A stretch of 16,666 nt of DNA, taken from IMG/VR virus record IMGVR_UViG_2585427766_000008, positions 1 to 16,666 of that record. One strand, given 5' to 3'. Below, one piece after another: positions 2,379 through 14,849 of this stretch. A program made the position numbers and the translations under genes. Source of the DNA: a virus. Lineage: Duplodnaviria > Heunggongvirae > Uroviricota > Caudoviricetes. Numbering within the stretch: the first letter of the stretch is position 1; each line of letters opens with the position of its first letter. A model generated the notes under the pieces. It had not been told where the DNA came from and did not search any database. It saw nothing but the letters and a program-made list of their open reading frames with translations.

Positions 2379-3805
2379 CAGTTGCCCCCTTTCAGGGTTA
2401 ACAGGTATTCCGAGGTGATCTCAGTCTCAAACGTCAGTCGCTCCAGCGGCGGTGGTGGCGTATATTTGTAGCTCAGCAACAGGTGCCCGGCGGCCAGCTC
2501 CGTCTCCGGATTGCGGGCCGGATCAAACCAGCAACGGAAGCCCAGTACCGCACCATCACCAGTCATTTTGCGACCGTAGGCGTTGACCGACTCCGTCAGT
2601 GCATCAATCAGCGCCTGAGTAATCGGCATGTCGATGTACTGCTGGCTGAAATAACGAATGGACTCGTTGATCACATCACCGGTGCGGCGAACGTTCTCAA
2701 AGTTACGCATATGGGTGACCGTTGGCCATGCTGCCGTCCGGTTACCCCACAGACGAAGGCCGCTGCCGTAACTGCTGAATACCGTGGTGATCCCCTGTTC
2801 GTTAAGCAGGTTTACCTCACTCTGCGGGTCATCAATCATCGCGGACAGCTGGCGCTCCACGCCGGTGATCCCCAGAATCTCCTGATTGGAGGATGACCAC
2901 CAGTAGCCCTTGTCCAGATCGACTCTGGCACGCAGACCTGCTGCACGCTGGCTGAGCGGCTCCAGACGCTCTGTGTTTGTCACCGGGTCATATACCTTCA
3001 CATGCGGATAGCACAGACGGACGCGGTCGGAGCTGGTATTGAAGTTGATGGTGCCTTCCGGGCCACGACCTGCCAGAGCCTGTGCAAAGGTGGTACCGAC
3101 AGGCGCATCAATGTAGGTTACCGCGCCCAGCTTCTCTGCCATGGCGATAAGCTCAACTGCGACACTCTTCTGGGTGCAGAACACCGGCGCAATCAGAATT
3201 TTGGCGAAATAGCCGTACAGGTTGAAGCTGTCGTTAAGCAGCTTCATGCCGGTTCGGTTTCCGGCGCTGTTCACCCCGCCGATGATGTCCGCCGCAGTCA
3301 CCTTCGACGGGTCCGCGTACTCATAGCTCACCTTCACGCTGCCACCGGCCTCAATAGCCTTGCCCAGGTTCGTGAGCACACCCGCCTGCGCATCAACACG
3401 GTAGTCCGTGTTCGCCGTGTGGGTGGTGCTGCCTTCACTGTTTTTCACCACCACATTAGCGACAACCGGATGCGCCAGTCTGGCCTGCCCTGTCGATTTG
3501 TCAAAGGTAACCACCTCATCCTCGATCGCCGTTTTATGTTTCGCCGGGTCGAGGACGTTAATGACCAGAACGGTGCCTGCACCATGGTCATAAATCGCAT
3601 CCAGCGCCTGCGGAATGGTAAAGCCGGTGAACTGGCTGCCAAATGCCGCTGCGTCTTTCTCAGACAGGCACTGTACCAGCGTATTGACATCCCCCATCGG
3701 GGCGGTACCAATCAGGCCAATAACGGCAGATTTCACCGTTTTAACCGGGCGGGCTCCGTTTTCCACCTCAATGGTTTCGGGACCATGCAGATAGTTAGCT
3801 GCCAT
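2378..3805 (-). CDS. Contractile tail sheath protein (Mu gpL-like)
   Basis: 475-aa ORF. Its N-terminal region (VKTVKSAVIGLIGTAP...) and its size and position ahead of the tube gene are typical of myovirus sheath proteins. Confidence 0.85.
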   Translation of the reverse strand: MAANYLHGPETIEVENGARPVKTVKSAVIGLIGTAPMGDVNTLVQCLSEKDAAAFGSQFTGFTIPQALDAIYDHGAGTVLVINVLDPAKHKTAIEDEVVTFDKSTGQARLAHPVVANVVVKNSEGSTTHTANTDYRVDAQAGVLTNLGKAIEAGGSVKVSYEYADPSKVTAADIIGGVNSAGNRTGMKLLNDSFNLYGYFAKILIAPVFCTQKSVAVELIAMAEKLGAVTYIDAPVGTTFAQALAGRGPEGTINFNTSSDRVRLCYPHVKVYDPVTNTERLEPLSQRAAGLRARVDLDKGYWWSSSNQEILGITGVERQLSAMIDDPQSEVNLLNEQGITTVFSSYGSGLRLWGNRTAAWPTVTHMRNFENVRRTGDVINESIRYFSQQYIDMPITQALIDALTESVNAYGRKMTGDGAVLGFRCWFDPARNPETELAAGHLLLSYKYTPPPPLERLTFETEITSEYLLTLKGGN

Positions 3806-12500: not shown

Positions 12501-12811
12501 TATTCACTCCAGTACTTTTCCGGGCGGGCAATACCCGGACCACATTCCACGGTGTATTCCACCAGGTCTACGCCGAGGCGGGTCAGGTCAGCAAACCAGT
12601 CGCCAGAAGGTTTTTTCTCCAGCTCAACCATTTTACGGTCAGCCAGATAATCCAGTTCGCGGCGCAGTTCCAGCGGTGTGGTGTCCGGGTAGATGGCGCG
12701 GGACACGTCCAGCAGCAACGTTTCACTGGCGGTGTAAGGGCGGGTTTTGTTCAGGGCAACCAGCAAACTCCAGCGCAGGGATTCGCGGCGTACCCGGGTA
12801 ATATCGACCAT
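12500..12811 (-). CDS. Hypothetical protein (Mu gp26 position)
   Basis: 103-aa ORF whose ends abut both neighbours; no recognisable motif. Confidence 0.4.
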   Translation of the reverse strand: MVDITRVRRESLRWSLLVALNKTRPYTASETLLLDVSRAIYPDTTPLELRRELDYLADRKMVELEKKPSGDWFADLTRLGVDLVEYTVECGPGIARPEKYWSE

Positions 12812-13137
12812 TATTGACCTCCGGTATTGCGGTACTGCTGTACCACTTCCAGTTTGTTATAAAGCGCGTCCAGTTTGGCCTCGATGACTGTCTGGCCACG
12901 GATATAATCCTCGCGACGGACATAATTCAGCGGTAAATCCGCTTTAAATCGCATAAATTCTTTTTCCAGCTCGCCCCAGTTGGAGGCGGACTGTTGCAGG
13001 GCCTGTTCAAGGGAGGCGAATCGTGCCGCCTGGCGTTCTTCTGTTTTACTGAACAACCATTTGGCGAGCCCTCCCACAAACCCCATGAAGGTGAGCAGAA
13101 AACTCACCACCGTCCAGAATTCAACCTGCAGTGTCAT
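12811..13137 (-). CDS. Small membrane protein with N-terminal TM helix and coiled-coil region (Mu gp25-like)
   Basis: 108-aa ORF with the hydrophobic N-terminal segment WTVVSFLLTFMGFVGGLAKWLF followed by charged coiled-coil-like sequence; it lies between the spanin pair and the packaging genes. Confidence 0.45.
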   Translation of the reverse strand: MTLQVEFWTVVSFLLTFMGFVGGLAKWLFSKTEERQAARFASLEQALQQSASNWGELEKEFMRFKADLPLNYVRREDYIRGQTVIEAKLDALYNKLEVVQQYRNTGGQ

Positions 13138-13784
13138 TTCTGTAATCCTTCCCGTTCATCCAGTAACGCGTTTATCTGGTTCCGCCAGCGACGACATTGT
13201 CCTGCGTTGTCGATGATGTTGGCGAGAACGTCACGCTGGGAGACACCCGAATCGCGTAACCGGGTGTCAGTGGTTTCAGGTTGCCCGGTCGCTGTGCCAG
13301 AGCGGGTGCCAGCGGCGGCAACTGAGTCTGAATGACCGGTGTCGACGGATGCGTTGTCATATCCGAGTGCGGCGTTGTACTGGCGCACGAAACCGCGAGT
13401 AAACACGCACTCAATGGGATGGCTCTTACCTTTTTCATCAATCCAGCGCTGTGTGACATCGTTAATTTGCCCCTGTAGTTGTTTGTTCCGGCTCTCCAGT
13501 TGAGCAATCTGCTCAAGATAACCGGCTTCAGCCCGCTGCCCGGCGGCCACCTGCTCCTGATACCGTCTGGCCCAGGCCCGCAGCGCAGCATTCTCAAGCG
13601 TTGCCTGCTCCGTTTTGTACGCGTCAAATGCTGACTGCAACTGACTGAGCGCGGTATCACCGTCACGCTTTGCAGAGTCATGACCACTTCTGTATCCCAT
13701 GGCATACAGGCCGACCAGAAAGGCATTGATAAGAATGGCCAGCAGAATGCCGCGCCACGGCAGCTTTTTAACCAGATGCCGCAC
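13134..13784 (-). CDS. i-spanin (Rz-like inner-membrane spanin component)
   Basis: N-terminal TM segment (ILLAILINAFLVGLYAMGY) followed by a long periplasmic coiled-coil region (Q/A/L/E-rich). The track ORF starts at 13886 and would overlap the endolysin by 119 nt; a GTG at 13782-13784 preceded by GGGGAGG is the more likely start. The start position was worked out by codon arithmetic from the track translation. Confidence 0.6.
   Translation of the reverse strand: MRHLVKKLPWRGILLAILINAFLVGLYAMGYRSGHDSAKRDGDTALSQLQSAFDAYKTEQATLENAALRAWARRYQEQVAAGQRAEAGYLEQIAQLESRNKQLQGQINDVTQRWIDEKGKSHPIECVFTRGFVRQYNAALGYDNASVDTGHSDSVAAAGTRSGTATGQPETTDTRLRDSGVSQRDVLANIIDNAGQCRRWRNQINALLDEREGLQK
13172..13438 (-). 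CDS. o-spanin (Rz1-like outer-membrane lipoprotein) embedded in the +1 frame of the i-spanin gene
   Basis: Internal ATG at residue 122 of the 13172-13801 track ORF gives an 88-aa product, MKKVRAIPLSACLLAVSC..., with a lipoprotein signal, a lipobox-like LAVSC and a Pro-rich mature region (PVIQTQLPPLAPALAQRPGNLKPLTPG). It lies entirely inside the i-spanin ORF. Confidence 0.65.
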   Translation of the reverse strand: MKKVRAIPLSACLLAVSCASTTPHSDMTTHPSTPVIQTQLPPLAPALAQRPGNLKPLTPGYAIRVSPSVTFSPTSSTTQDNVVAGGTR

Positions 13785-14502
13785 AACTGCTGCCTCCCCA
13801 TGTGAGATATCGCGGTGCCAGTTCGCGCAGGATGCGCTGCGGATAATGGCGGTTCTCCCGCCAGCTGGCCGCATTGCGTCCGGCATTCACCGTGGCGACA
13901 TGTCCGAACCAGCGGGTGCTGTCCAGACCTTTCTGTGATGCAAGCCGCCTGTCCCGTTGTACCCAGCCCAGACCACCGTTATAGCCCGACAGTGTCATGG
14001 CCATACGCTCGCAGTCACTGGCGGCGCTGACACGCTGCCACAGCCAGCGGTCATAGCTGACCAGCGCCCGGATAGCCCATGCCGGATTAAACGGCTCACG
14101 ACTGCTCAGCATCGGTATCAACTGGCTTATCCAGTCGGCAGTGGCAGGCATGAACTGCGCCAGTCCCTGAGCGCCAGCCGGCGAGATCGCATCAGGTCGC
14201 CAGCCGCTTTCCTGATGCAGTTGCGCGGCGAAATCGGCCACCGGCGCAGACAGTCCCCATTCAAGCCGGGCATTACGGATCACATCATCGCGATACTGCA
14301 GCGCAGCCTGCGGGGGCTGCGCTGCGCATGCCTGGCTGAAAAAGCCGCCACACCAGAGCAGCCAGACAATCACCAGGTTGCCAGCAAGCTGCCACCAGAA
14401 GCTGTATTTATCGTTACGTGGTTCTCCGTGTCTGATGGCGGTTACGCCCAGACCAAAGGCGAACAGAATAATGAGGGTGATTTGAGGCCAGTTCATGGTC
14501 AC
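13768..14502 (-). CDS. Endolysin, lytic transglycosylase type (SLT domain) with N-terminal membrane-anchor / SAR-like region
   Basis: 244-aa ORF containing the SLT catalytic-region motif (LHQESGWRPDAISPAGAQGLAQFMPATA). Two hydrophobic segments in the first ~60 residues. Overlaps the upstream membrane-protein gene by 4 nt. Confidence 0.8.
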   Translation of the reverse strand: MTMNWPQITLIILFAFGLGVTAIRHGEPRNDKYSFWWQLAGNLVIVWLLWCGGFFSQACAAQPPQAALQYRDDVIRNARLEWGLSAPVADFAAQLHQESGWRPDAISPAGAQGLAQFMPATADWISQLIPMLSSREPFNPAWAIRALVSYDRWLWQRVSAASDCERMAMTLSGYNGGLGWVQRDRRLASQKGLDSTRWFGHVATVNAGRNAASWRENRHYPQRILRELAPRYLTWGGSSCAASG

Positions 14503-14849
14503 AGTCCTGTTGCCACAGCCAGGCAGACCGCTGCAACAATCAGTGCACGGCGGATTAACGCAGCAGAAAACACCAGGTGAAGGCCGGTCTGTACCGGGAA
14601 ACGCCCTTCAGCCATCAGCCTGTCGTCATGTTTCAGGTACTGACCGGGACGGGCTTTGGGGAAGAGCGAACGGTCAAGCCAGTAACCCAGCACTGCTGCC
14701 AGCGTGATAAGTGCCAGCTTGTAGATCACAACAGGCAACTGCTGTGGCGAGACCAGAGCGATGATGCCCAGCAACAGCACTGAGGTCAGCAGCCAGCCGC
14801 TGAGGCGAGGTTTTTTAACAGGGGGAATGAATTTTTTCAGGTTTTTCAT
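14499..14849 (-). CDS. Putative holin / small membrane protein with three predicted TM helices
   Basis: The ATG at 14847-14849 is preceded by GAGGAG with a 6-nt spacer; the track's longer ORF starts at a GTG at 14882 with no RBS. The 116-aa product has three hydrophobic segments and sits first in the lysis cassette. Holin assignment is positional. Confidence 0.45.
   Translation of the reverse strand: MKNLKKFIPPVKKPRLSGWLLTSVLLLGIIALVSPQQLPVVIYKLALITLAAVLGYWLDRSLFPKARPGQYLKHDDRLMAEGRFPVQTGLHLVFSAALIRRALIVAAVCLAVATGL

What the first reader, a model, noticed from the sequence alone, without database searches (positions are those of the whole stretch)
13134..13784. Lambda-style embedded spanin pair: Rz1-like lipoprotein encoded inside the Rz-like gene in the +1 frame
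Within the i-spanin gene, a second frame encodes an 88-aa product with a lipoprotein signal, a lipobox-like LAVSC and a Pro-rich body, which are the hallmarks of an o-spanin. It is fully embedded rather than overlapping or separate. This makes the lysis cassette complete (holin candidate, endolysin, two-component spanin), and it is a gene that automated annotation often misses.
Basis: partly seen in the sequence, partly recalled or inferred. Interest (0 to 1): 0.4.

Follow-up and report, generated by a model that had tools for sequence, protein, structure and literature searches.

The report
Hidden spanin gene inside Rz gene
A small lipoprotein gene really is hidden in a second reading frame inside a phage lysis gene of this E. 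coli prophage, but it is the expected partner gene, already described in the related phage BcepMu, that gene finders routinely miss.

Summary
Confirmed, and ordinary. The window is a BcepMu-like (Mu-type) prophage of E. coli. All its lysis genes lie on the minus strand: holin 14499-14849, SLT endolysin 13768-14496, Rz-like i-spanin 13134-13784.

Inside the Rz gene, in the +1 frame, lies an open frame at 13172-13438 (88 aa; 95 aa from an upstream ATG at 13459). Its product has a basic N-terminus, a 12-residue hydrophobic core, an AVSC lipobox (Cys18) and a Pro/Ser/Thr-rich body.

An open +1 frame alone means little: 29% of synonymous reshuffles of Rz keep it open. The comparative evidence is strong:
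- 14 of 14 intact relatives from other Enterobacterales keep the start, lipobox, length and stop.
- Synonymous divergence of Rz falls from 0.45-0.67 to 0.03-0.2 across the overlap.
- Where Rz varies, the +1 frame is conserved, and vice versa.

The product is 39-40% identical to BcepMu gp24 ("Rz1, out of frame, embedded") and to the equivalent frame of phage B3.

No annotated record examined calls the gene, and no clean call exists among about 15 billion database proteins. It is a new member of a known kind. Spanin function is inferred, not tested.

The parts
13134..13784 (-). i-spanin (Rz-like) gene, 216 aa, GTG start. It has an N-terminal transmembrane segment and a helical periplasmic domain, with Cys126 and Cys197.
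   Evidence: phrog_1403 'Rz-like spanin' E=1e-91. The same CDS is called by PGAP as 'lysis system spanin subunit'. BLASTP against BcepMu gp23 gives E=1e-10. AF2 single-sequence model: helix 10-118, low-confidence linker 121-179, helix 183-215.
13689..13763 (-). Single transmembrane segment of the i-spanin (residues about 8-32), preceded by R2, K6, K7 and R11.
   Evidence: This is the only stretch where a 19-residue Kyte-Doolittle window reaches 1.6 or more (peak 2.15).
13172..13438 (-). Embedded o-spanin (Rz1-like) gene in the +1 frame of Rz. Precursor of 88 aa from this ATG.
   Evidence: ORF. Start, lipobox, length and stop are kept in 14 of 14 relatives. Dual-coding signature. 39% identity to BcepMu gp24 and 40% to the B3 embedded frame.
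13439..13459 (-). Possible 7-codon N-terminal extension (MSHSAGL) from an upstream in-frame ATG at 13459, giving a 95-aa precursor with the same mature product.
   Evidence: The ATG is conserved in 14 of 14 relatives. It aligns with the annotated start of BcepMu gp24 (MSRANT...). Synonymous suppression in Rz already begins near codon 100.
13470..13474 (-). Candidate Shine-Dalgarno sequence (AGGGG), 10 nt upstream of ATG 13459.
   Evidence: Predicted duplex with the 16S rRNA 3' end is -5.7 kcal/mol. That is similar to the TerS, TerL and gp25-like starts, and better than the -3.1 kcal/mol at ATG 13438. CAGGGG is kept in 12 of 14 relatives.
13385..13399 (-). Lipobox L-A-V-S-C (o-spanin residues 14-18). 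Cys18 is the predicted lipidated first residue of the mature protein. The +2 residue is Ala.
   Evidence: The PS51257 pattern matches only at Cys18. AVSC is identical in 14 of 14 relatives. The +2 residue is Ala in 13 and Val in 1.
13259..13348 (-). Conserved core of the mature o-spanin (residues 31-60, PSTPVIQTQLPPLAPALAQRPGNLKPLTPG). It is encoded over the variable, low-confidence linker of Rz (codons 146-175).
   Evidence: Rz varies in 25 of 30 columns here and the +1 frame in 13 of 30. The Rz frame has pN 0.15-0.18 with pS 0.03-0.05. The motif PPxLxxRPxxxxxL[TI]PxY is shared with BcepMu, B3, Tom33 and Komp_PAO1_1. AF2 pLDDT is below 50 over Rz residues 121-179.
13768..14496 (-). Endolysin: SLT lytic transglycosylase domain preceded by two N-terminal hydrophobic segments.
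   Evidence: PF01464 E=1.7e-14. phrog_669 endolysin E=1e-70. PGAP start taken. Hydropathy.
14499..14849 (-). Holin, 116 aa.
   Evidence: PF13272 Holin_2-3 E=6e-41. phrog_1528 holin E=4e-54. GAGGAG Shine-Dalgarno at -8.9 kcal/mol.
12811..13137 (-). Gene for a 108-aa membrane protein immediately downstream, with its start overlapping the Rz stop (ATGA). It is the BcepMu gp25 homologue. Whether it acts in lysis is unknown.
   Evidence: 53% identity to BcepMu gp25, E=3e-35. phrog_462. No BLASTP similarity to the Mu gp25 releasin.

Best explanation
The region encodes a two-component spanin of the embedded type, the enterobacterial counterpart of BcepMu gp23/gp24.

Shown here:
- The Rz-like protein has one N-terminal membrane anchor.
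- A single-sequence structure model predicts a mostly helical periplasmic domain with a flexible linker.
- A second frame inside the gene is under purifying selection as a protein.
- That frame encodes a precursor with a lipoprotein signal.

Inferred from what is established for lambda Rz/Rz1 and other spanins:
- The precursor is exported. Cys18 is lipidated and signal peptidase II cuts just before it. Because Ala, not Asp, follows the Cys, the 71-residue mature lipoprotein is sorted to the outer membrane.
- Its C-terminal part binds the C-terminal part of the inner-membrane Rz protein, forming a complex that spans the periplasm through the peptidoglycan mesh.
- After the holin and the SLT endolysin have destroyed the wall, the complex is free to collapse. 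It fuses the inner and outer membranes, which is the last step of lysis.
- Covalent homodimerisation would come from the two periplasmic Cys of the i-spanin (C126, C197), because the mature o-spanin has no Cys other than the lipidated one.
For: 1. Outer gene. It matches phrog_1403 'Rz-like spanin' at E=1e-91. It has a single N-terminal TMD. The model shows a long helix, a linker and a C-terminal helix.

2. Gene order. Holin, SLT endolysin, Rz(+Rz1), gp25-like, gp26-like, Mu-gp27-type TerS, TerL. This is the order in BcepMu and B3.

3. Lipoprotein signal. MKKVR, then a 12-residue hydrophobic core, then AVSC. PS51257 is met only at Cys18. The +2 residue is Ala.

4. Conservation. In 14 of 14 intact relatives, the ORF keeps both ATGs, the lipobox, 88 codons and the same stop. 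These relatives come from E. coli prophages and phages, Klebsiella phage KP12, Pantoea, Buttiauxella, Pseudocitrobacter, Erwinia, Mixta, Trabulsiella, Limnobaculum, Symbiopectobacterium and Apirhabdus, with Rz 71-99% identical. The +1 frame upstream of the ORF and the +2 frame carry stops at varying places.

5. Dual-coding signature.
- Rz-frame pS is 0.45-0.67 over codons 1-100 and 0.03-0.2 over codons 101-185. The five neighbouring genes have pS 0.30-0.38.
- Among Rz codons with an invariant amino acid, 29 of 37 vary synonymously upstream against 19 of 55 in the overlap (Fisher p=4e-5). Against the neighbouring genes (338 of 496), p=2e-6.
- +1-frame dN/dS is 0.45 in the overlap against 1.03 upstream. 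The +2 frame gives 2.25.
- Constraint alternates between frames. Over Rz codons 146-175, Rz varies in 25 of 30 columns and the +1 frame in 13 of 30. Over codons 176-204 it is Rz 9 of 29 and the +1 frame 16 of 29.

6. Homology. The product is 39% identical to BcepMu gp24, annotated 'Rz1, out of frame, embedded proline-rich protein', and 40% to the B3 frame. A +1 lipobox ORF sits at the same relative position (0.50-0.54 L) in BcepMu, B3, Tom33 and Komp_PAO1_1.

7. Literature. Kongari et al. 2018 (PMC6139136) list BcepMu/phiE255 and the B3 group as embedded two-component spanins. They report that about 70% of embedded o-spanins start at 0.4-0.5 L and end at 0.9-1 L. Here the values are 0.50/0.54 L and 0.94 L.
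Against: - There is no experimental evidence for expression, lipidation or lysis function, here or (as far as I found) for BcepMu gp24.
- SignalP and LipoP were not available. The -3 residue of the lipobox is Ala. That lies outside the narrow consensus [LVI][ASTVI][GAS]C, though inside PS51257 and similar to the AAGC box of B3 and Tom33.
- ATG 13438 has a poor Shine-Dalgarno match.
- The open frame alone is expected in 29% of synonymous recodings.
- The 88-aa product has no Pfam, PHROG or NCBIfam hit.
- Part of the similarity to gp24 is forced by homology of the outer frames.
- Pro content (15%) is lower than in lambda Rz1 or BcepMu gp24.
- The Rz structure model comes from a single sequence and has low overall confidence (mean pLDDT 64.9).
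Confidence: 0.9

Rival explanations
1. The +1 open frame is an accident of the Rz amino-acid sequence and base composition. It is not translated into a functional protein.
For: 29% of synonymous recodings of Rz leave the stretch open. The product has no family hit. The Shine-Dalgarno match at ATG 13438 is weak. No gene caller reports the gene.
Against: Start, lipobox, length and stop are identical in 14 of 14 relatives. Synonymous change in Rz is suppressed three- to tenfold, specifically over the ORF. Over Rz codons 151-175 the Rz frame has pN well above pS while the +1 frame is conserved. A lipobox ORF sits at the same place in relatives whose Rz is only about 30% identical.
Confidence: 0.03
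2. The embedded frame does encode a real lipoprotein, but its job is something other than outer-membrane disruption. An example would be superinfection exclusion or receptor blocking, as with the Llp/Cor-type prophage lipoproteins.
For: Function was not tested. The mature part has no periplasmic Cys and is less Pro-rich than classic Rz1 proteins. There is no match to any o-spanin profile.
Against: It is embedded in an Rz homologue, inside a lysis cassette, at the canonical 0.5-0.94 L position. It is homologous to the Rz1 equivalents of BcepMu and B3. 124 of 526 catalogued o-spanins lack periplasmic Cys. No other o-spanin candidate is seen in the cassette.
Confidence: 0.05
3. The low synonymous divergence over the 3' half of Rz reflects recent recombination, or an RNA- or DNA-level element, rather than a second coding frame.
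For: Prophages of this type are mosaic. Synonymous suppression begins about 15 codons before ATG 13438.
Against: Recombination would lower pN and pS together, but pN in Rz rises to 0.15-0.18 exactly where pS is lowest. The constraint is frame-specific: dN/dS is 0.45 in +1 against 2.25 in +2. The early onset fits the upstream ATG 13459 and its Shine-Dalgarno sequence. The flanking genes show normal pS.
Confidence: 0.02

Closest known systems
Burkholderia phage BcepMu gp23 (Rz) / gp24 (Rz1), embedded two-component spanin (NC_005882; embedded class in Kongari et al. 2018, PMC6139136)
   Same: - Same gene order: holin, SLT endolysin, Rz with embedded Rz1, gp25, gp26, TerS, TerL.
- Rz1 is in the +1 frame, starts at about 0.5 L and stops exactly 38 nt before the Rz stop.
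- Detectable sequence homology of both proteins: Rz E=1e-10, Rz1 39% identity.
- Shared PPxLxxRPxxxxLxPGY core.
- Two in-frame start candidates 7-10 codons apart.

   Different: - Only about 32-39% identical.
- Lipobox is AVSC rather than LSAC.
- The mature o-spanin is longer (71 against 56 aa), with a 7-residue insertion after CASTTP.
- It is less Pro-rich (15% against 25%) and lacks the periplasmic Cys of gp24.
- The i-spanin has a second Cys (C197) that gp23 lacks.
- The host is Enterobacterales.
Pseudomonas phage B3 ORF27 (Rz-like spanin) and its unannotated +1 lipoprotein frame (B3/JBD18/JBD25/JBD67 group of Kongari et al. 2018)
   Same: Rz is homologous (about 31-33% identity over 92% of its length by tblastn). 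The +1-frame lipoprotein is 40% identical and starts at 0.51 L. The flanking genes are the same.
   Different: In B3 and Komp_PAO1_1 the +1 frame runs 7 and 19 nt past the Rz stop, so it is strictly overlapped rather than embedded. The o-spanin has a periplasmic Cys. The lipobox is AAGC or VVGC.
Phage lambda Rz/Rz1 (prototype embedded spanin)
   Same: The architecture matches: an o-spanin lipoprotein wholly embedded in the +1 frame of a type II inner-membrane protein, as the last function of the lysis cassette. The i-spanin layout is TMD, helix, linker, helix. The i-spanin has two periplasmic Cys, as in Rz (C99, C152).
   Different: No sequence similarity was detected: the Pfam scan of both proteins returned no Rz or Rz1 family and no hit above a curated cut-off. 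The mature o-spanin is 71 aa against 40 aa, 15% Pro against 25%, with no counterpart of Rz1 C29. The endolysin is an SLT transglycosylase with N-terminal hydrophobic segments.
Phage Mu gp23/gp23.1 two-component spanin (Chamblee et al. 2022, PMC9239132)
   Same: Also a transposable phage whose spanin pair lies between the endolysin and the gp25-gp28 block. There too the o-spanin was absent from the original annotation and was identified later.
   Different: Mu gp23 did not appear among the 60 phage records matched by this Rz at E<=1e-3. Mu has no holin and uses the gp25 releasin. The gp25-position protein here shows no BLASTP similarity to Mu gp25, and this cassette does have a holin.

Membership tests
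Two-component spanin, embedded architecture (Summer et al. 2007; Kongari et al. 2018) | The i-spanin is a type II inner-membrane protein with a single N-terminal TMD and a periplasmic, largely helical C-terminal domain. | tested here: met
   There is one hydrophobic window, residues 8-32, preceded by R/K residues. The AF2 model has helix 10-118, a linker, and helix 183-215, but is low-confidence and single-sequence. phrog_1403 Rz-like spanin E=1e-91.
Two-component spanin, embedded architecture (Summer et al. 2007; Kongari et al. 2018) | The o-spanin has a signal peptidase II signal: a basic n-region, a hydrophobic h-region and a lipobox ending in Cys. | tested here: met
   The PS51257 pattern and rules are met at Cys18 only. 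K2, K3 and R5 are present. The h-region AIPLSACLLAVS has mean KD 2.07. AVSC is invariant in 14 relatives. The -3 residue Ala is outside the narrow [LVI][ASTVI][GAS]C consensus. LipoP and SignalP were not available.
Two-component spanin, embedded architecture (Summer et al. 2007; Kongari et al. 2018) | Outer-membrane sorting: no Asp at position +2 after the lipidated Cys. | tested here: met
   The +2 residue is Ala in 13 relatives and Val in 1. The sorting rule itself is established knowledge of the Lol pathway and was not tested here.
Two-component spanin, embedded architecture (Summer et al. 2007; Kongari et al. 2018) | The o-spanin gene lies wholly inside the i-spanin gene in another frame. 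| tested here: met
   13172-13438 (or -13459) lies inside 13134-13784 in the +1 frame, spanning 0.50/0.54 L to 0.94 L.
Two-component spanin, embedded architecture (Summer et al. 2007; Kongari et al. 2018) | Located in a lysis cassette next to the endolysin and holin. | tested here: met
   The holin (PF13272) and the SLT endolysin lie immediately upstream. The endolysin stop overlaps the Rz start.
Two-component spanin, embedded architecture (Summer et al. 2007; Kongari et al. 2018) | At least one periplasmic Cys in either subunit, for intermolecular disulfide bonding (507 of 528 systems). | tested here: met
   The i-spanin has C126 and C197, conserved in all 14 relatives. The mature o-spanin has none. 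Disulfide formation itself was not tested.
Two-component spanin, embedded architecture (Summer et al. 2007; Kongari et al. 2018) | The embedded frame is a real gene, i.e. under purifying selection. | tested here: met
   Synonymous suppression in Rz, a +1-frame dN/dS of 0.45 against 1.03 upstream, and reciprocal constraint between the frames.
Two-component spanin, embedded architecture (Summer et al. 2007; Kongari et al. 2018) | Both subunits are required for outer-membrane disruption, and the pair complements lambda Rzam Rz1am. | not testable with these tools
   This needs a lysis assay in Mg2+-supplemented cultures.
BcepMu gp23/gp24 spanin sequence family | Significant sequence similarity of the i-spanin to gp23. 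| tested here: met
   Pairwise BLASTP E=1e-10, 32% identity over the C-terminal 118 residues. However, BcepMu was not among the tblastn hits at database scale. The relationship is therefore distant, and the pair would probably not fall in the same BLASTCLUST family as defined by Kongari et al.
BcepMu gp23/gp24 spanin sequence family | Significant sequence similarity of the o-spanin to gp24. | tested here: inconclusive
   Pairwise BLASTP E=1e-5, 39% identity over 56 residues, with a shared PPxLxxRPxxxxLxPGY core. The comparison is short and low-complexity, and is partly forced by homology of the overlapping frame.

The most novel reading that the evidence does not exclude
Within one homologous spanin family, the stabilising disulfide appears to have moved between subunits. 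BcepMu and B3-type pairs have one central i-spanin Cys plus an o-spanin Cys (APxCP). The enterobacterial lineage has lost the o-spanin Cys and carries a second, C-terminal i-spanin Cys (C197). This would be a natural replay of the lambda rule that either Rz C152 or Rz1 C29 suffices. The same family also mixes embedded members (window, BcepMu, Tom33) with barely overlapped ones (B3, Komp_PAO1_1), whereas the 2018 survey found no family mixing embedded with other architectures. Separately, this never-annotated gene sits in about 12% of complete E. coli genomes.
Probability: 0.4. Interest if true: 0.3.

Novelty: new member of a known kind. Interest (0 to 1): 0.15.

Why it matters
The practical value is for annotation. 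The prophage segment is present in 637 of 5426 complete E. coli genomes. The embedded o-spanin is not called in any of the five annotated records examined, nor as a clean product anywhere in a collection of about 15 billion proteins. The outer gene is variously labelled 'lipoprotein', 'hypothetical protein' or 'lysis system spanin subunit'. Adding the gene completes the lysis cassette of this prophage family. It also gives a clean example of alternating constraint in overlapping genes. It does not change the understanding of lysis: the architecture and the family were described for BcepMu in 2004 and catalogued in 2007 and 2018.

Tried and rejected
- Pfam, PHROGs and NCBIfam scans of the 88-aa product found nothing meaningful. 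BcepMu gp24 and the B3 frame also have no NCBIfam family.
- Synonymous-recoding test of ORF length. The open frame over the ORF is expected 29% of the time, so I dropped 'an ORF exists' as evidence. The full 203-codon open +1 run in this particular sequence is rarer (0.55%) but is not conserved in relatives.
- Cys12 (LSAC) as the lipidation site. Rejected: the h-region would be only about 6 residues, and PS51257 fails there.
- First exact look-up of the longer precursor used a wrong start (13462). It was repeated correctly with 13459 and was still absent.
- vB_EcoM_ECO1230-10, an E. coli phage listed as an embedded-spanin singleton, was checked as a possible closer relative. It is a Jilinvirus unrelated to this prophage and was not among the Rz tblastn hits.
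- Mu gp25 releasin compared with the downstream 108-aa membrane protein: no similarity.
- One row of alignment A1 (L014) was given in the wrong frame and should be ignored.
- The structure prediction used a single sequence and has low confidence. It was used only for secondary-structure layout, and no fold search was attempted.
Full report
**What is at the coordinates.**
All genes in this part of the window are on the minus strand.
- In its +1 frame there is an ATG at 13438 and a stop ending at 13172.
- It starts in Rz codon 116 and ends 38 nt before the Rz stop, so it is fully embedded.
- A second in-frame ATG lies 21 nt upstream at 13459 and would give a 95-aa precursor starting MSHSAGLMKK.

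**Context.**
- The window is 100% identical over the tested 701 bp to a prophage in E. coli DLI.5a. Matching sequence occurs in 637 of 5426 complete E. coli genomes.
- The nearest phage records are Escherichia phage PhiKM (classified under Bcepmuvirus), Klebsiella phage KP12 and Phi06_2974 B.
- The gene order is:
  - holin (PF13272, E=6e-41; 14499-14849)
  - SLT endolysin (PF01464; 13768-14496)
  - Rz-like spanin (phrog_1403, E=1e-91)
  - a 108-aa membrane protein
  - a 103-aa protein
  - Mu-gp27-type small terminase
  - large terminase

- This is the order in Burkholderia phage BcepMu and Pseudomonas phage B3.

**Is the embedded frame more than chance?**
By itself, no. I re-coded the Rz protein 20,000 times with synonymous codons drawn from the local codon usage. 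The 88-codon stretch stayed free of +1 stops in 29% of trials. I therefore looked for conservation.

A scan of one genome per species returned 12 loci. With the E. coli and phage records this gave 14 intact comparators, with Rz 71-99% identical. They come from E. coli, Klebsiella phage KP12, Pantoea, Buttiauxella, Pseudocitrobacter, Erwinia, Mixta, Trabulsiella, Limnobaculum, Symbiopectobacterium and Apirhabdus.
- In all 14 the +1 frame keeps both ATGs, MKK[V/A]R, the AVSC lipobox with Cys18, 88 codons and the same stop.
- The +1 frame upstream of the ORF, and the +2 frame, contain stops at varying positions.

**Dual-coding signature.**
- In the Rz frame, the proportion of synonymous differences (pS) is 0.45-0.67 over codons 1-100. 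It falls to 0.03-0.2 over codons 101-185 and recovers to 0.30-0.38 near the end.
- The five neighbouring genes have pS 0.30-0.38.
- Counting alignment columns rather than sequence pairs: of Rz codons with an invariant amino acid, 29 of 37 vary synonymously upstream against 19 of 55 in the overlap (Fisher p=4e-5). Against the neighbouring genes (338 of 496), p=2e-6.
- The constraint is frame-specific. dN/dS in the +1 frame is 0.45 in the overlap and 1.03 upstream. The +2 frame gives 2.25.
- The two frames take turns.
  - Over Rz codons 146-175, Rz varies in 25 of 30 columns (pN 0.15-0.18, pS 0.03-0.05). The +1 frame there (PSTPVIQTQLPPLAPALAQRPGNLKPLTPG) varies in 13 of 30.
  - Over codons 176-204, Rz is conserved (9 of 29 variable) and the o-spanin tail is free (16 of 29).
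- This pattern rules out recombination or a nucleic-acid element as the cause, because pN rises where pS is lowest.
- A single-sequence AlphaFold model of Rz has low overall confidence (mean pLDDT 64.9). It shows helix 10-118, a low-confidence stretch 121-179 and helix 183-215. The conserved o-spanin core is thus encoded over the Rz linker.

**Lipoprotein signal.**
- SignalP and LipoP were not available.
- The PROSITE PS51257 pattern, {DERK}(6)-[LIVMFWSTAG](2)-[LIVMFYSTAGCQ]-[AGS]-C, is met at Cys18 and nowhere else. The Cys falls within positions 15-35 and there is a K/R in the first seven residues.
- The h-region AIPLSACLLAVS has mean hydropathy 2.07.
- The residue after the Cys is Ala, not Asp. 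By the established Lol sorting rule, this predicts outer-membrane localisation.
- The -3 residue, Ala, lies outside the narrow consensus [LVI][ASTVI][GAS]C. Kongari et al. document deviating o-spanin lipoboxes, and the B3 and Tom33 relatives use AAGC.
- Cys12 (LSAC) is not a credible site, because the hydrophobic core before it would be about 6 residues.

**Start codon.**
- ATG 13438 has a weak ribosome-binding match (-3.1 kcal/mol, short spacing).
- ATG 13459 has AGGGG 10 nt upstream (-5.7 kcal/mol), comparable with the terminase and gp25-like starts.
- Both ATGs are conserved in 14 of 14 relatives and CAGGGG in 12 of 14.
- Synonymous suppression begins near codon 100, upstream of either ATG.
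- The MS... start aligns with the annotated start of BcepMu gp24 (MSRANTARRRMRLF) and with the first of two starts in B3, Tom33 and Komp_PAO1_1.
- I consider 13459 at least as likely as 13438. Signal peptidase II cleavage would give the same 71-residue mature protein from either.

**Relation to known systems.**
- BcepMu carries gp23 (Rz) with gp24 inside it, annotated 'Rz1, out of frame, embedded proline-rich protein'.
- The window's Rz matches gp23 (E=1e-10). Its embedded product matches gp24 (39% identity, E=1e-5) and the unannotated +1 frame of B3 ORF27 (40%).
- All four distant relatives examined have a +1-frame lipobox ORF starting at 0.50-0.54 of the Rz length.
- In BcepMu and Tom33, as here, that ORF stops exactly 38 nt before the Rz stop.
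- Kongari et al. 2018 (PMC6139136) list BcepMu/phiE255 and B3/JBD18/JBD25/JBD67 among embedded two-component spanins. They report that about 70% of embedded o-spanins run from 0.4-0.5 L to 0.9-1 L.
- The finding is therefore a new, enterobacterial member of a described kind. Lambda Rz/Rz1 shares the architecture, but no sequence similarity to it was detected.

**Mechanism (inferred).**
No function was tested here. By analogy with lambda Rz/Rz1:
- The i-spanin is anchored in the inner membrane by residues 8-32.
- The o-spanin is lipidated at Cys18 and sorted to the outer membrane.
- Their C-terminal regions associate across the periplasm.
- After the holin and the SLT endolysin act, the complex fuses the two membranes.
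- The general requirement for at least one periplasmic Cys (507 of 528 systems) is met by the i-spanin (C126, C197). The mature o-spanin has none, as in 124 of 526 catalogued o-spanins.

**Annotation status.**
- The embedded gene is absent from the annotation of KP12, PhiKM and three PGAP-annotated E. coli chromosomes. In those records the outer gene is called 'putative lipoprotein', 'hypothetical protein' or 'lysis system spanin subunit'.
- The exact 88-aa and 95-aa sequences are not among about 15 billion database proteins. The exact Rz sequence was seen on 537 contigs.
- A homology search returned only six proteins, all chimeras or fragments created by frameshifts or deletions.

**Verdict.**
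This is an expected component of a known lysis cassette, so interest is low (0.15). Two side observations may interest spanin specialists:
- The stabilising Cys appears to have relocated from the o-spanin to the C-terminal helix of the i-spanin in this lineage.
- The same homologous family contains both embedded and slightly overlapped members.

Noticed in passing
window 13134-13784 (Rz C126, C197; o-spanin 13172-13438); L021, L018, L019, L020: The Cys pattern differs between lineages. All 14 enterobacterial pairs have two periplasmic Cys in the i-spanin and none in the mature o-spanin. BcepMu, B3 and Komp_PAO1_1 have one i-spanin Cys plus an o-spanin Cys in a conserved APxCP motif. This resembles the lambda rule that either Rz C152 or Rz1 C29 is sufficient.
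   Followed up: partly
L018 1766-2074 against Rz 1456-2067 (B3); L020 1706-2032 against Rz 1402-2013 (Komp_PAO1_1): In B3 and Komp_PAO1_1 the homologous +1 lipoprotein frame runs 7 and 19 nt past the Rz stop, which is strictly 'overlapped'. In BcepMu, Tom33 and this window it stops 38 nt before the Rz stop ('embedded'). The 2018 spanin survey reported no family mixing embedded with other architectures.
   Followed up: partly
L015 3125-4938 (Mixta mediterraneensis): An IS21-like element (342-aa IstA-like and 262-aa IstB-like ORFs) is inserted into the Rz/Rz1 pair near Rz codon 191. In that copy the lipobox Cys is replaced by Tyr (LLAVSYAST). This looks like a decaying prophage copy.
   Followed up: partly
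L011 (Candidatus Erwinia dacicola), Rz match 2501-3139: Rz is truncated by a premature stop at codon 196, while the +1 lipoprotein frame is still intact, with an AASC lipobox.
   Followed up: no
window 13768-14496 (-): The SLT endolysin has two N-terminal hydrophobic segments (residues about 3-24 and 41-59) ahead of the catalytic domain. Residues 3-56 match a separate PHROG of unknown function (phrog_5479, E=9e-14). This suggests a membrane-tethered or SAR-type endolysin.
   Followed up: no
window 12811-13137 (-): A 108-aa protein with an N-terminal TMD has its ATG overlapping the Rz stop. It is 53% identical to BcepMu gp25 and matches phrog_462 ('lipoprotein'). It sits where Mu has its gp25 releasin but shows no BLASTP similarity to it. 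Whether it acts in lysis is unknown.
   Followed up: partly
proteins P0016-P0021 (database hits to the o-spanin): The only database proteins resembling the o-spanin are fusion or frameshift products. Examples are one that starts in the o-spanin frame and ends in the Rz frame, and a TerS-o-spanin fusion. No clean call of the gene exists.
   Followed up: yes
window 13134-13784 and equivalents in public records: The outer i-spanin gene is inconsistently named 'lipoprotein', 'putative lipoprotein', 'hypothetical protein' or 'lysis system spanin subunit' across RefSeq and GenBank records. Nothing in the i-spanin's own sequence suggests a lipoprotein, so the 'lipoprotein' label looks misplaced.
   Followed up: no
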